A DNA stretch of 32,000 bases from Ureaplasma parvum serovar 3 str. ATCC 27815 (GTDB lineage Bacteria > Bacillota_I > Bacilli_A > Mycoplasmatales > Mycoplasmoidaceae): positions 60,001-92,000 of the forward strand of contig NC_010503.1 in assembly GCF_000019345.1 (NCBI RefSeq), given 5' to 3'. The notes beneath the pieces were generated by a model. It was not told where the DNA came from. It saw nothing but the letters and a program-made list of their open reading frames with translations, and did no database searches. This document shows, in pieces, positions 6,271 to 9,951 of this stretch (within the stretch, counting starts at the first letter, position 1; every line of letters starts with the position of its first letter). Made by a program: the position numbers and the translations under genes.

Positions 6271-6296
6271 TAATTATTAATTTATATTAAATTTAA

Positions 6297-6330
6297 ACCT
6301 TGGTAACTATATTAATTACCGAGGTTTTTT
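6297..6330 (+). terminator. rho-independent terminator after the ATPase operon
   Basis: The 10-bp stem pairs accttggtaa with ttaccgaggt, including one G-U pair. The loop is 9 nt and a T6 run follows. Confidence 0.75.
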
Positions 6331-6517: not shown

Positions 6518-6523
6518 AAGGAG
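6518..6523 (+). promoter_or_regulatory. Shine-Dalgarno AAGGAG for the nuclease lipoprotein gene
   Basis: AAGGAG lies 11 nt upstream of the GTG start at 6535. Confidence 0.6.
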
Positions 6524-6534
6524 TTTAAAATAAA

Positions 6535-9500
6535 GTGGTTTGTAAAAAAAATAAATTGAAAATGTTTGGTTTTATTGCTATTGGAACTGTTTTAACTAGT
6601 GCAATAATTCCTTTTTTAGTTACATGCGCAAAAGAGAAAAAAATAAAGCAAGAAGTTATAAAACCAAAACAAATAAGTAATTTAAATCTTGAAGCTAAAA
6701 ATATTGATATTGTTTTAAAAAATAATGTCTTCAATAAAGAAACAGCAAAATTTACATTGGATTTTGACATAAATAAAGAGTTAAATTTACAAATGGTTGC
6801 TGTTTTTGATGTTTTTGATAAAAAAAATAACTGATTAAAAACAATTAAAACAGCTAAAACAAATTTAGTGGATAAAAAATTTGTTTTTGACAGTTTAGAT
6901 GAGAATGTTAAATATCTACTAAAACAAATTGATTTTTACGATCCAAAAGCGCCTAATCAAATTATTTATACAAAAAACAATCAGACATTTAGTTTTGATA
7001 CTAAAATGGATGATAGCATCGCTAGAACTGTTGAACTAATTATTATTAGTGGGTTTAATGGTTTTGTTGATGAACAAATTGTTCCAGATTATAATAAACA
7101 AACTACATATTTAAAAGCACCCGGGTTAATTCGATTATTAAATGAAGTTAATAAAATTAAAAAAGAACGAGGTGCGAATAATGTTGCTGTAGTTATGGGT
7201 GGAAATAATTATTATGAAAATAATATATCTTCATTAACTAGAGCTCAATATACAACAGCCGCATTAAAGTTTTTAAATCCAGTAGCTACTAGCATCGCTA
7301 ATACTGATTTAAATTGGGGTTATGATTTAATTGACGAAAAAACAAAGCATTTTAAAGAATACGTCAAAGCTTTATATGGTAATGATGGTATTTTATCTGT
7401 TAACTCTTATCTAAAAGATGGTGATAAAAACATACAAATGACTAATAATTCAAAAATTATTAACTTTGGTGGTTTTAAATTAGGATTAATTGGAGCAATG
7501 AGTAATTTAATTAATTTTGAATCTAATCTTAATTTAACAAAAAATATTCAATGATTTAGTAATGAACAAACAGCTAATTTGATTAATGATGAGGCCGATA
7601 AGCTTAAGGATCAAGGTGTTAAAAATATTGTTTTATTATCAAGTTTTTTAGCAGATAAAGCAAAGGAAAATGACACTTTAACTAATGATGAAAAATCTTT
7701 TTATAAAGAAGCATCACGAATGAGTAAATTAATAGATAATAATGTCAATTTAATGAGTGTTATTAATCCTTATAAAGCACTTAATGTAATTGCTAATAAT
7801 AAAAATAATCAACCTTTGAATGTTGTTCAATCAAAACCTAATAGTGGTTTTGTACGATATATGATCACACTAAATCCTTATAACCGTATTTTAAAAACAG
7901 AAATTAAGCTTGTTGATAAACTGTCAACAAGCGGTGATAATGCAGGATATCATTATATAACTCAACAAGATTTATTAAATCCACAAAAAAATCCTGATTT
8001 CAATCAAAATTTGATTACATTAAATAATTTTCTTAATAATTATAAAGATCATGAATACGAGCAATTAAGAGAAAAAATACTGATTAAAAATGATAAAAAA
8101 GTCAATTTATATTCTTCAACATATTCACTTAGTTCCTTAGGAGCGTTTATAAGTGATATATTAGCAAAATACTATCAAGCTCCTTTTTATAATAAACAAA
8201 CACATACTTTTGAATTTAAACAAACACAAGCTATCCTATTAGCTCCTCATGCTATTCGTTCTTTGGTTTCTGCTAAACCTATTAAACTAGAAAATTTAAA
8301 TCAAATTTTACCTTTTAATGATACGTTAGTATCAGGTGAAATTAGTGTTAAAAATCTTAAAGAATTTTTAATTAACAAGAATAAATCTCAAAATTACAAC
8401 GAACCATATCAATTTAGTAATACGCTAAAAATTGAATATGAAAACTTACAAGAAACAAAAACAAAGAAAAAATCAAGAAAAAAACAATCAGAACAAAGTT
8501 ATAGTGATAATGAAAAAAAAGATGGTCTAATTTTAAGTCATCAAAAAAGAGTTATTAAAGTCTTTTTGAAAAATTCAGATGGTACGTATACAGAATTAAA
8601 TGATAATCAAAAAATTATAGTAAGTGTTATGAATTCGATCTTAAAATTTAATAAAAAATTTAGTGAGGCTCTTTTAAATAAAACATACGCTGACCAAACT
8701 AATATTCGTGATTTGCTAAGAACATACTTACCAAAAGAAACACAAATCGATCAAAAATATGATCAAAGTGTGTTTAGTAAAAATGATGCTCGTTTTTATA
8801 AAAAAAAAGAAACAGACCAAAATAAATCACTTATTTACAATCATATTAATGAAAGTATTAATAATAAACAAGCCGATCATTTAAGAATTGGGCACTGAAA
8901 TGTTCTACATCAGACTGGATTAAATGATCCTAAGAACTATGCTTTAGCTAAAACAATTTTATTTAATAAATACGATATTATTGGATTAACAGAAATTTGG
9001 CCTGCAGAAAATAACAATCAGGAACAAAACAATTTACCGTTGATAGGAATCATTAAGTATTTAAATCAGTTAAGTGGCTCAGATGATTATGATTTTTTAA
9101 TTAGTGATAATCTTAAAGGTAGTGAAAATGATAAATTAGCAACAAACGAACATACAAGTACTGAACGAATTGGGATAATTTATAATAAGAAAAAAGTTAA
9201 ACCTATTCCGTTTGCAAATAATAAAATCGGTTATATTTATTCAAATCCATTACAACCTGGCAAATATGAAAAAGCAGAAACTGATTATTCACGTCCACCA
9301 TTTGCTATTAAATTTGCTTCAATTGGTCAAATTAAAAATGATTTTACATTGGTTTTCGGTCATCTTGATAGTCCTGGAACTTATCCATCAAATACAGAAT
9401 ATCAAAAGAAAGAGCATCTACTAAAACGTACAGAATTAGTTAATAAAAAAGTAATTTCAACGAACCAAATGATTAATAAATATGAACAAGGAAGTCGTGA

Positions 9501-9951
9501 AGTGGACGATGCTGAACGATTAGTCAAAGTTATGGAAGAAATTAAAAAAATTGATAACAATAAGGATGATGATTATTTCTTTTTAGGTGATACTAATATT
9601 CGTTTACATAATCAACAATGAGTTTTTAGAACTTTAATTCAAAATGGTTATAGTAGTGTTTTTAGCGATAATGACTTATTTAAATCATCATTAAGTGTAA
9701 ATCCTGGTGAATTTTCAAACCCTTATGATAAAATTTTTTCTCAAGTTAATGGTTTAACTATTTCTAATCCAAGTATTTATAATTTATGAAATGTATATGA
9801 AGATCAAATTGTTGATCAAGAATGGTTAAAAAAAGTGCGTAGTTTATACCCTAATGAATATCATGATAAATTATTTTATATTCGTAACGATATTTCTGAT
9901 CATGCACCTACATTCTTTGATTTAGGTTTAAATAAAAACGACACTAAATAA
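6535..9951 (+). CDS. large surface lipoprotein: 5'-nucleotidase-like region fused to a C-terminal endonuclease/exonuclease/phosphatase (DNase I-like, MnuA-type) membrane nuclease domain
   Basis: Track ORFs 6535..6834, 6868..7554, 7579..8898 and 9040..9621 plus the tail are all in frame 1. They are joined by TGA codons at 6832, 7552, 8896, 9619 and 9787, and the stop is TAA at 9949. The lipoprotein signal is KKNKLKMFGFIAIGTVLTSAIIPFLVTC. The 5'-nucleotidase C-terminal-like block is LGAFISDILAKYY...AILLAPHAIRSL...LPFNDTLVSGEISVKNLKEFL. The EEP motifs are HWNV, IIGLTEI, FTLVFGHLDSPG, FFLGDTNI and ISDHAPTF. Confidence 0.85.

What the first reader, a model, noticed from the sequence alone, without database searches (positions are those of the whole stretch)
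6535..9951. Giant lipoprotein fusing a 5'-nucleotidase-like module to a DNase I-type (EEP) nuclease
Seen in sequence:
- One 1138-codon frame is interrupted only by five TGA codons.
- It begins with a lipoprotein signal.
- A region follows whose block order resembles the UshA/5'-nucleotidase family, a metallophosphatase-like part followed by a clear 5'-nucleotidase C-terminal-like block.
- A Lys-rich linker (KTKKKSRKKQSEQ) follows.
- The frame ends in a complete EEP nuclease motif set.

Established knowledge: mycoplasmas cannot make nucleotides de novo. They rely on surface nucleases (MnuA-type EEP lipoproteins) and nucleotidases for salvage, and those nucleases also degrade neutrophil extracellular traps. 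To my knowledge these activities are normally on separate proteins.

Inference: a single-polypeptide fusion could channel DNA degradation products. It would be more than twice the length I recall for MnuA-type nucleases.
Basis: partly seen in the sequence, partly recalled or inferred. Interest (0 to 1): 0.6.

Follow-up and report, generated by a model that had tools for sequence, protein, structure and literature searches.

The report
Surface nuclease carrying a dead nucleotidase module
This Ureaplasma parvum gene encodes one long surface lipoprotein in which an intact DNase I-type (MnuA) nuclease is joined to a module descended from a 5'-nucleotidase that has lost all but one of its catalytic residues.

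Summary
Window 6535-9951 (+) is one 1138-codon frame under code 4, with five TGA=Trp codons, a Shine-Dalgarno site and a lipoprotein-like signal ending at an invariant Cys31.

The organism is Ureaplasma parvum. NCBI already names the product "MnuA family membrane nuclease" or "5'-nucleotidase C-terminal domain-containing protein".

**Nuclease part.** Residues 784-1138 are a complete MnuA/DNase I-type nuclease: NCBIfam E 2e-85, and every DNase I catalytic residue is invariant.

**Nucleotidase-like part.** Residues 164-749 are truly homologous to UshA-type 5'-nucleotidases (hhalign probability 99.9%). Seven of the eight metal-binding or catalytic positions are replaced, and the base-stacking clamp is degraded. 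This is true in all five fused orthologues: U. parvum, U. urealyticum and three pinniped ureaplasmas.

**Comparisons.** U. diversum keeps an intact stand-alone 5'-nucleotidase and separate MnuA genes. The dead module is under purifying selection (dN/dS about 0.1 in two lineages), so it is used, but not as a phosphatase.

The Lys-rich "linker" is really a fast-evolving loop inserted inside the nucleotidase C-domain.

The channelling idea is not supported. I rate this a new variant of a known kind, of moderate interest. The scan has not found it on other DNA.

The parts
6518..6523 (+). Shine-Dalgarno-like AAGGAG, 11 nt before the GTG start
   Evidence: Read directly from the sequence. There is no such site before the alternative ATG at 6562.
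6535..9951 (+). Whole coding sequence: 1138 codons plus TAA, with five TGA=Trp. Probably locus UU055 of U. parvum serovar 3; this number is inferred from neighbour numbering and was not checked.
   Evidence: The product is 99% identical to a U. parvum protein cluster named MnuA family membrane nuclease / 5'-nucleotidase C-terminal domain-containing protein.
6535..6627 (+). Lipoprotein-type signal peptide (residues 1-31): basic n-region, hydrophobic core, L-V-T-C with Cys31 at 6625-6627
   Evidence: Cys31 is invariant in five orthologues. Not run through a signal-peptide predictor.
6628..7014 (+). N-terminal region (residues 32-160) with no family match. Pinniped orthologues have a roughly 225-residue coiled-coil-like region here instead.
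   Evidence: No Pfam or NCBIfam hit. dN/dS is 0.43 against U. urealyticum. It does not align with the pinniped orthologues.
7015..7854 (+). Metallophosphatase-derived domain (residues 161-440) that has lost its metal and catalytic residues
   Evidence: hhalign 99.9% to real 5'-nucleotidases. Motif table: G173, N175, N224, N256, T257, S370, N411, Y413. No Pfam Metallophos hit. dN/dS 0.13.
7855..8781 (+). Long interdomain segment plus 5_nucleotid_C-like domain (residues 441-749)
   Evidence: Pfam PF02872 scores 28.5 bits, above the 23.6 cut-off, at residues 528-676. The hhalign alignment runs to about residue 749. R575 and F594 are kept; the second clamp Phe is S701. dN/dS 0.10-0.14.
8452..8553 (+). 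Lys-rich variable loop (residues 640-673) inserted inside the 5_nucleotid_C-like domain
   Evidence: Absent from pinniped orthologues and from stand-alone 5'-nucleotidases. Only 34% identical between U. parvum and U. urealyticum, with dN/dS about 2.5 on 38 codons.
8782..8883 (+). True inter-module linker (residues 750-783). It contains an A9 run at 8800-8808.
   Evidence: Lies between the end of the hhalign match and the start of the MnuA model match at residue 785. dN/dS 0.40. Homopolymer list.
8884..9948 (+). MnuA / DNase I-type EEP nuclease domain (residues 784-1138) with a full catalytic set
   Evidence: NCBIfam NF045851 E 2.1e-85, 287.5 bits against a 185 cut-off, model positions 1-315 of 317. 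The profile hits DNase gamma 7KIU (1.4e-13) and DNase I 1DNK (3.5e-12). N789, E820, E877, H943, D1019, N1021, D1065, D1122 and H1123 are invariant in 14 family members. dN/dS 0.10.

Best explanation
The gene encodes a membrane-anchored surface lipoprotein of Ureaplasma parvum. Its only catalytic part is the C-terminal MnuA-family, DNase I-like, divalent-cation-dependent nuclease. That domain would cut extracellular DNA, and possibly RNA, for nucleotide salvage and probably for degrading host extracellular DNA.

Residues 164-749 descend from the Ureaplasma 5'-nucleotidase lipoprotein, which has a metallophosphatase domain followed by a 5_nucleotid_C domain. This module became joined to the nuclease in an ancestor of the human and pinniped ureaplasmas. 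It has lost its dimetal catalytic centre and part of its nucleotide clamp, so it is a pseudoenzyme.

The module is conserved under purifying selection about as strong as on the nuclease domain. It therefore still has a structure-dependent, non-catalytic role. My inference is that it positions or regulates the nuclease, or captures substrate. In the human species an added basic, fast-evolving loop makes the module strongly cationic.

Shown here: the architecture, the homology of both modules, the loss of catalytic residues, the intact nuclease residues, conservation of the fusion, and purifying selection. Inferred: nuclease activity, surface exposure, and the accessory role of the dead module.
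For: - Single ORF, ribosome-binding site and signal.
- Nuclease domain: NF045851 at E 2e-85. The profile matches solved DNase gamma and DNase I. All DNase I catalytic positions are invariant. The two catalytic His were shown to be essential in M. hyorhinis MnuA2 (PMC12848938).
- Homology of the N-module to 5'-nucleotidases: Pfam PF02872 above its cut-off; phmmer E 1e-39 to P0041, which has Metallophos and 5_nucleotid_C; hhalign 99.9%, E 3e-35, 474 columns; the pseudo-module profile alone pulls only 5'-nucleotidase-family PDB chains, weakly (3ZTV E 0.0011, 2Z1A 0.028, 3IVD 0.06).
- Loss of catalytic residues in all five fused orthologues, against invariance in 13 stand-alone relatives. No Metallophos hit in any fused protein.
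- The own genome has no other 5_nucleotid_C gene.
- The fusion is conserved in U. urealyticum (77% identity), U. zalophigenitalium, U. miroungigenitalium and Ureaplasma sp. ES3154-GEN.
- The pseudo-modules are monophyletic and sister to the intact U. diversum 5'-nucleotidase.
- dN/dS for the module is 0.10-0.14 against 0.10 for EEP (parvum vs urealyticum), and 0.09 against 0.04 (U. zalophigenitalium vs U. miroungigenitalium).
Against: - No activity, localisation or expression data exist for this protein in the papers I could search.
- The only structure model was unusable (mean pLDDT 40). The dead active site therefore rests on sequence and profile alignment alone.
- A few polar residues at former active-site positions are conserved (N175, N225, D258; N256 in the human species). 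A non-canonical metal or ligand site cannot be excluded.
- The cationic character of the module is not conserved in the pinniped orthologues (net +16/+17 against +3 to -16). This weakens a general DNA-capture role.
- Some U. parvum assemblies carry frameshifted copies, so the gene may be dispensable or variable in some strains.
Confidence: 0.8

Rival explanations
1. One reading: a true bifunctional enzyme. The EEP nuclease releases 5'-mononucleotides and the attached 5'-nucleotidase dephosphorylates them on the same polypeptide for uptake (substrate channelling).
For: - Both modules are homologous to the right enzyme families.
- MnuA-type products carry a 5'-phosphate (PMC12848938).
- U. parvum has no other UshA-type gene, so this is the only candidate ecto-5'-nucleotidase.
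- R575 and F594 of the substrate domain are retained in U. parvum.
Against: - Seven of the eight metal or catalytic positions are replaced by Gly, Asn, Thr, Ser or Tyr in every fused orthologue.
- The bridging-Asp position varies among N, I, S and T.
- No Pfam Metallophos match.
- The second clamp Phe is lost, and F594 is Leu in U. urealyticum.
Confidence: 0.04
2. The nucleotidase-like region is a decaying relic with no function of its own. It would be kept only because removing it would disrupt export or expression of the nuclease.
For: - The catalytic residues are gone.
- U. diversum MnuA lipoproteins work with a low-complexity linker in place of this module.
- In the EEP tree the unfused U. 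diversum MnuAs sit beside the human fused proteins, with support 93/84. This is compatible with loss of the module being tolerated.
Against: - dN/dS is 0.09-0.14 over about 590 codons in two independent species pairs. That is as low as, or close to, the nuclease domain and well below the flanking linkers and N-terminal regions at 0.2-0.43.
- The module is recognisably conserved at about 30% identity between the human and pinniped clades, with about 100 invariant residues.
Confidence: 0.06
3. The precursor is cleaved after export into two separate surface or secreted products, a pseudo-nucleotidase lipoprotein and a free nuclease. The fusion would then be only a co-expression device.
For: - The junction (residues 750-783) and the Lys-rich loop evolve fast and are Lys-rich, and so protease-accessible.
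- Endoproteolytic processing of mycoplasma surface proteins is common; this is from my own knowledge and was not tested here.
Against: - No direct evidence either way.
- The nuclease part has no anchor of its own, so cleavage would release it.
- This is compatible with the best explanation rather than exclusive of it.
Confidence: 0.1

Closest known systems
MnuA family membrane nucleases (M. pulmonis MnuA, M. bovis MnuA MBOVPG45_0215, M. hyorhinis MnuA2; NCBIfam NF045851)
   Same: The C-terminal 355 residues match the family model end to end (E 2e-85). They have the DNase I-like catalytic residues, including the two His shown to be essential in MnuA2. The protein carries an N-terminal lipoprotein or membrane signal, and its host organism cannot synthesise nucleotides.
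   Different: Typical members are about 400-500 aa. This one carries about 750 extra N-terminal residues, including a 5'-nucleotidase-derived module. U. parvum also has an ordinary short MnuA paralogue (434 aa, P0035) that belongs to a different clade.
Ureaplasma diversum stand-alone 5'-nucleotidase lipoprotein (WP_038103142.1, 657 aa) and M. bovis 5'-NT (MBOVPG45_0690)
   Same: It is the closest relative of the N-module (phmmer E 1e-39, about 30% identity) and its sister clade in the tree. The layout is the same: lipoprotein signal, metallophosphatase domain, a long interdomain segment (109 aa in M. bovis), then 5_nucleotid_C.
   Different: These proteins keep every DxH, GD, GNH, H and HxH motif and the Phe clamp and are not joined to a nuclease. 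The M. bovis enzyme is an experimentally supported virulence factor (PMC11729948).
E. coli UshA / H. influenzae NadN / T. thermophilus 5'-nucleotidase (solved structures 3ZTV, 2Z1A, 3IVD)
   Same: Same two-domain family. These are the only PDB chains pulled by the pseudo-module profile, at weak E-values of 0.0011 to 0.06.
   Different: Sequence similarity is very low, and the dimetal site that defines their chemistry is absent here.
Human/bovine DNase I and DNase1L3 (1DNK, 7KIU)
   Same: They are the best solved-structure matches of the nuclease domain, and the catalytic residues align one to one.
   Different: The MnuA domain has a roughly 40-residue insertion between the His943 and Asp1019 motifs, and it is lipid-anchored through a long N-terminal extension.
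Other long MnuA-family proteins (M. anserisalpingitidis 1035 aa, M. ciconiae 1003 aa, Mycoplasma sp. 1018B 785 aa)
   Same: They have a C-terminal MnuA-type domain behind a long N-terminal extension.
   Different: Their extensions show no similarity to the 5'-nucleotidase-derived module (hhalign probability 0.5% or less).

Membership tests
MnuA family membrane nuclease (NF045851) | Full-length match to the family HMM above the curated cut-off | tested here: met
   287.5 bits against a cut-off of 185, model positions 1-315 of 317, residues 785-1130.
MnuA family membrane nuclease (NF045851) | DNase I-like catalytic set (Asn, 2 Glu, His, Asp/Asn, Asp, Asp-His) | tested here: met
   N789, E820, E877, H943, D1019, N1021, D1065, D1122 and H1123 are invariant in a 14-member alignment. 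They align with the DNase gamma and DNase I motifs.
MnuA family membrane nuclease (NF045851) | Membrane association through an N-terminal lipoprotein signal or anchor | tested here: inconclusive
   The sequence shows a basic n-region, a hydrophobic core and an invariant Cys31 after L-V-T. No predictor or experiment was available.
MnuA family membrane nuclease (NF045851) | Ca2+/Mg2+-dependent nuclease activity | not testable with these tools
   Needs an enzyme assay.
EEP superfamily, Pfam PF03372 | Pfam gathering score | tested here: not met
   17.4 bits against a cut-off of 24.5. The general model is simply less sensitive than the MnuA model and the PDB profile search. This is not evidence against the fold.
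UshA-type 5'-nucleotidase (COG0737; Metallophos + 5_nucleotid_C) | Homology over both domains | tested here: met
   hhalign probability 99.9%, E 3.2e-35, 474 aligned columns. phmmer E 1e-39 to P0041.
UshA-type 5'-nucleotidase (COG0737; Metallophos + 5_nucleotid_C) | 5_nucleotid_C domain above the Pfam cut-off | tested here: met
   28.5 bits against 23.6. Four of the five fused orthologues match.
UshA-type 5'-nucleotidase (COG0737; Metallophos + 5_nucleotid_C) | Dimetal-site and catalytic residues (DxH, GD, GNH, H, HxH) | tested here: not met
   G173, N175, N224, T257, S370, N411 and Y413 replace D, H, D, H, H, H and H. Only N256 is kept. The losses are the same in all five orthologues, and the motifs are invariant in 13 stand-alone members. 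No Pfam Metallophos hit.
UshA-type 5'-nucleotidase (COG0737; Metallophos + 5_nucleotid_C) | Substrate-binding Arg and the two base-stacking Phe of the C-domain | tested here: not met
   R575 is kept (Lys in pinniped species). F594 is kept in U. parvum but is Leu in U. urealyticum. The second Phe is S701, or Ile in pinniped species, and the GGDxY motif is lost.

The most novel reading that the evidence does not exclude
The dead 5'-nucleotidase module has been repurposed as a specific binding domain. It could bind nucleic acid or nucleotide product, or a host or membrane partner such as a nucleoside transporter, and so tether substrate to, or allosterically gate, the attached nuclease. That would be a documented case of an enzyme-to-pseudoenzyme conversion creating an accessory domain for a bacterial surface nuclease. 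Conserved polar residues at the former metal site (N175, N225, D258) would form the new ligand site.
Probability: 0.25. Interest if true: 0.55.

Novelty: new variant of a known kind. Interest (0 to 1): 0.4.

Why it matters
Ureaplasmas cannot make nucleotides and live on mucosal surfaces where neutrophil DNA traps form, so their surface nucleases are candidate nutrition and immune-evasion factors. None has been characterised. A 2012 comparison of 19 genomes only noted two signal-bearing nucleases as targets for study (PMC3511179).

This analysis makes three points:
- The larger of the two is a conserved fusion confined, in what was searched, to human and pinniped ureaplasmas.
- Database names such as "5'-nucleotidase C-terminal domain-containing protein" should not be read as nucleotidase activity.
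- The human ureaplasmas carry no intact UshA-type ecto-5'-nucleotidase at all, unlike U. diversum and M. bovis, where that enzyme matters for virulence.

The protein also offers a clean natural pair for studying what a pseudo-nucleotidase does: the intact stand-alone enzyme in U. diversum against the dead fused module in U. parvum.

Tried and rejected
- **AlphaFold2 on the full-length protein**, with the five-orthologue alignment: mean pLDDT 40, pTM 0.33. This is unusable, so I made no fold search and draw no structural claim.
- **Word-indexed homologue search with the N-module alone**: found nothing.
- **Single-sequence PDB searches**: only spurious RRP5 matches (E about 0.02) for the full protein, and nothing for the N-module. 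Profiles were needed.
- **N-terminal region 32-160**: by eye it resembled the N-terminal region of the U. diversum MnuA lipoproteins, but BLAST gave no significant match. I dropped the idea.
- **Conserved electrostatic DNA-binding role for the module**: not supported. It is cationic only in the two human species.
- **Independent fusions against a single fusion**: the module tree supports one origin. The EEP tree places the unfused U. diversum MnuAs beside the human fused proteins at 93/84 support. Later loss in U. diversum, or a second fusion, therefore cannot be excluded. I did not resolve this.
- **Promoter and terminator scan**: uninformative. It found fewer promoter-like sites than in shuffled sequence, and it missed the hairpin that I read by eye at about 6297-6330.
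- **Literature searches** for locus tags UU055-UU057 and for Ureaplasma nuclease or nucleotidase studies: no characterisation of this protein.
Full report
**Observation**

Under translation table 4, window 6535-9951 (+) is a single 1138-residue frame. It has five TGA codons (W100, W340, W788, W1029, W1085) and no other stop. The window is about 25% G+C.

Exact and near-exact protein matches identify the organism as Ureaplasma parvum. The product belongs to an 82-member cluster. NCBI names it "MnuA family membrane nuclease", "endonuclease/exonuclease/phosphatase domain protein" or "5'-nucleotidase C-terminal domain-containing protein".

Three of the TGA-coded tryptophans fall in columns that are invariant Trp in all orthologues, including the GHWN motif of the nuclease. 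Reading TGA as Trp is therefore not just a convenience.

AAGGAG at 6518-6523 precedes the GTG at 6535 by 11 nt. The U. urealyticum orthologue begins at the aligned position. I therefore prefer the 1138-residue form to the 1129-residue form that some records annotate.

The N-terminus has a basic n-region and a hydrophobic core. Cys31, after L-V-T, is invariant in five species.

**Nuclease module**

Residues 785-1130 match NCBIfam NF045851 (MnuA family membrane nuclease) end to end at E 2.1e-85, with 287.5 bits against a cut-off of 185.

I built a 14-member profile of this domain. Its best solved-structure matches are DNase gamma (7KIU, 1.4e-13) and DNase I (1DNK, 3.5e-12).

The positions equivalent to the DNase I catalytic residues are N789, E820, E877, H943, D1019, N1021, D1065, D1122 and H1123. 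All are invariant across that alignment. In M. hyorhinis MnuA2, the two equivalent histidines were shown by mutation to be essential for activity (PMC12848938). This module is therefore a complete MnuA-type nuclease.

**Nucleotidase-like module: real homology**

- Pfam 5_nucleotid_C matches residues 528-676 above its gathering score (28.5 against 23.6 bits).
- An exhaustive phmmer search of 1.84 billion representative proteins found a 651-residue stand-alone protein, P0041. It matches residues 147-619 at E 1e-39 and carries both Pfam Metallophos and 5_nucleotid_C.
- A profile of the five Ureaplasma modules aligns with a profile of eleven stand-alone family members at hhalign probability 99.9% (E 3.2e-35, 474 columns). 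The alignment spans residues 164-749.
- The profile of the Ureaplasma modules alone retrieves only 5'-nucleotidase-family chains from the PDB: 3ZTV, 2Z1A and 3IVD, at weak E-values of 0.0011 to 0.06.

**Nucleotidase-like module: dead active site**

I aligned the module with 13 stand-alone members, all of which keep the canonical motifs. The U. parvum protein compares as follows.

| Motif in stand-alone enzymes | U. parvum sequence | Substitutions |
|---|---|---|
| NDxHG | SGFNG | D->G173, H->N175 |
| GGD | GGN | D->N224 |
| GNHEFDWG | ANTDLNWG | N256 kept, H->T257 |
| motif-IV His | Ser | H->S370 |
| HxH | NPY | H->N411, H->Y413 |

The same positions are substituted in U. urealyticum and in the three pinniped orthologues. 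The former bridging-Asp position varies freely among N, I, S and T. None of the five fused proteins reaches Pfam Metallophos even at E 0.01.

In the C-domain, the phosphate-binding Arg is kept (R575; Lys in the pinniped species). The first stacking Phe is kept in U. parvum (F594) but is Leu in U. urealyticum. The second stacking Phe and the GGDxY motif are gone.

By every sequence criterion, the module cannot assemble the dimetal centre that defines the family's chemistry. That conclusion is now tested and holds.

**The Lys-rich stretch**

Residues 642-654 lie within a roughly 30-residue loop that is inserted inside the 5_nucleotid_C-like domain. The loop is absent from the pinniped orthologues and from all stand-alone enzymes. 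The domain resumes after it and ends near residue 749. The true junction with the nuclease is residues 750-783.

**Distribution and origin**

The fused architecture occurs in:
- U. urealyticum (77% identity);
- U. zalophigenitalium, U. miroungigenitalium and Ureaplasma sp. ES3154-GEN, at 1268-1322 aa and 32-35% identity, with a longer coiled-coil-like N-terminus.

It was not found in the other Ureaplasma genomes searched, many of which are incomplete, or in 53 genomes of eleven other genera of the family. In the exhaustive representative search, the only proteins that matched both the nucleotidase-like and the nuclease part were Ureaplasma orthologues.

U. diversum has an intact stand-alone 5'-nucleotidase lipoprotein (WP_038103142.1) and, on another contig, two tandem MnuA lipoprotein genes. 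Their nuclease domains are 49-56% identical to ours.

In a maximum-likelihood tree, the five dead modules form one clade (100/99). That clade is sister to the U. diversum enzyme (100/99). This fits a single fusion and a single loss of the active site, although long-branch attraction among fast-evolving pseudoenzymes is a caveat.

In the nuclease tree, the fused proteins and the U. diversum tandem MnuAs form one clade (100/99). This clade is distinct from the short MnuA paralogue that U. parvum, U. urealyticum and several other ureaplasmas searched also carry. Within the clade, the U. diversum genes sit beside the human fused proteins at 93/84 support. The order of fusion and any later loss is therefore unresolved.

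U. parvum itself has no other 5_nucleotid_C gene. It has one unrelated 264-residue metallophosphatase and a second, short MnuA paralogue with an uncleaved hydrophobic anchor (P0035).

**Is the dead module still used?**

Nei-Gojobori dN/dS for the two species pairs is shown below.

| Region | U. parvum vs U. urealyticum | U. zalophigenitalium vs U. miroungigenitalium |
|---|---|---|
| Metallophosphatase-derived domain | 0.13 | 0.09 (whole module) |
| 5_nucleotid_C-like parts | 0.10-0.14 | 0.09 (whole module) |
| Nuclease | 0.10 | 0.04 |
| N-terminal region | 0.43 | 0.22 |
| Junction linker | 0.40 | 0.20 |
| Lys-rich loop (38 codons only) | about 2.5 | loop absent |

In the pinniped pair dS is above 1, so those figures are approximate. 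The module is under constraint comparable to the enzyme domain in two independent lineages. That argues against a neutral relic or a passive spacer.

The module is strongly cationic only in the human species, with net charge +16/+17 against +3 to -16 in the pinniped species. Electrostatic DNA capture may therefore be a human-lineage addition rather than the conserved role.

**Mechanism**

Shown here:
- one exported, probably lipid-anchored polypeptide;
- an intact DNase I-like catalytic domain;
- a 5'-nucleotidase-derived module without a catalytic centre;
- conservation of the fusion and purifying selection on the module.

Inferred:
- the protein is a surface nuclease serving nucleotide salvage and probably degrading extracellular host DNA, as shown for MnuA in other mycoplasmas (reviews read);
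- the dead module has a structure-dependent accessory role, such as positioning, regulation or substrate or partner binding.

**Comparison with what is known**

The protein passes the membership tests for the MnuA family. It fails the defining catalytic-residue test for UshA-type 5'-nucleotidases, while clearly being descended from them.

Long MnuA-family proteins are not unique to Ureaplasma. Those in M. anserisalpingitidis, M. ciconiae and Mycoplasma sp. 1018B have unrelated extensions.

The held literature contains no study of this Ureaplasma protein. The 19-genome comparison only mentions two signal-bearing nucleases as targets for study (PMC3511179).

**Limits**

- There is no usable structure model.
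- No signal-peptide predictor was available.

**Verdict**

This is a new variant of a known kind: an MnuA nuclease with a pseudo-5'-nucleotidase accessory module. It is already annotated at domain level, and I rate it of moderate interest.

Noticed in passing
G000:C1:580361-581236 (outside the window; locus L010:1279-2580, minus strand): U. parvum has a second, short MnuA-family nuclease (434 aa, P0035). It has an N-terminal hydrophobic anchor without a lipobox Cys and a full catalytic set. It belongs to a separate clade from the fused gene, with members in several of the ureaplasmas searched.
   Followed up: partly
window 8513-8520 (A8), 9544-9550 (A7), about 7090 and about 7260: Some U. parvum assemblies hold frameshifted or split copies of this gene (P0008-P0011, P0015, P0017). 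Two of the break points coincide with poly-A runs, and both are in one strain. The other two are not at long runs. These could be sequencing errors or real inactivation or phase variation.
   Followed up: partly
window 8800-8808: An A9 run lies in the junction linker just before the nuclease domain. A plus or minus 1 slip here would remove the nuclease. None of the truncated database copies I looked at breaks here.
   Followed up: partly
window 8452-8553: The Lys-rich loop is only 34% identical between U. parvum and U. urealyticum, with dN above dS (38 codons, low complexity). It looks like a surface-exposed variable and possibly antigenic loop.
   Followed up: partly
L026:355-2610 and L026:2629 onwards (U. 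diversum, G061:C70): Two tandem MnuA lipoprotein genes. Each has a small N-terminal region, then a long E/K/Q/P-rich or poly-Q low-complexity linker, then the nuclease domain. This looks like a recent tandem duplication.
   Followed up: no
L029-L031 flanks: In the pinniped ureaplasmas the fused gene sits between minus-strand genes of about 635 aa on one side and 312, 200 and 382 aa on the other. This context differs from U. parvum, where the gene lies between the F1-like ATPase operon and secG-rnr-smpB. I did not annotate the flanking genes.
   Followed up: no
window 6296-6330: A hairpin followed by a T6 run lies after the upstream ATPase beta-like gene (read by eye). The consensus terminator scan did not report it. 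It suggests that the nuclease gene is transcribed on its own.
   Followed up: partly
P0066, P0080, P0103, P0069 (other mycoplasmas): MnuA-family proteins of 785-1035 aa have long N-terminal extensions with no Pfam match and, for the three tested (P0066, P0080, P0103), no similarity to the 5'-nucleotidase module. The surface nuclease appears to have acquired accessory regions repeatedly.
   Followed up: partly
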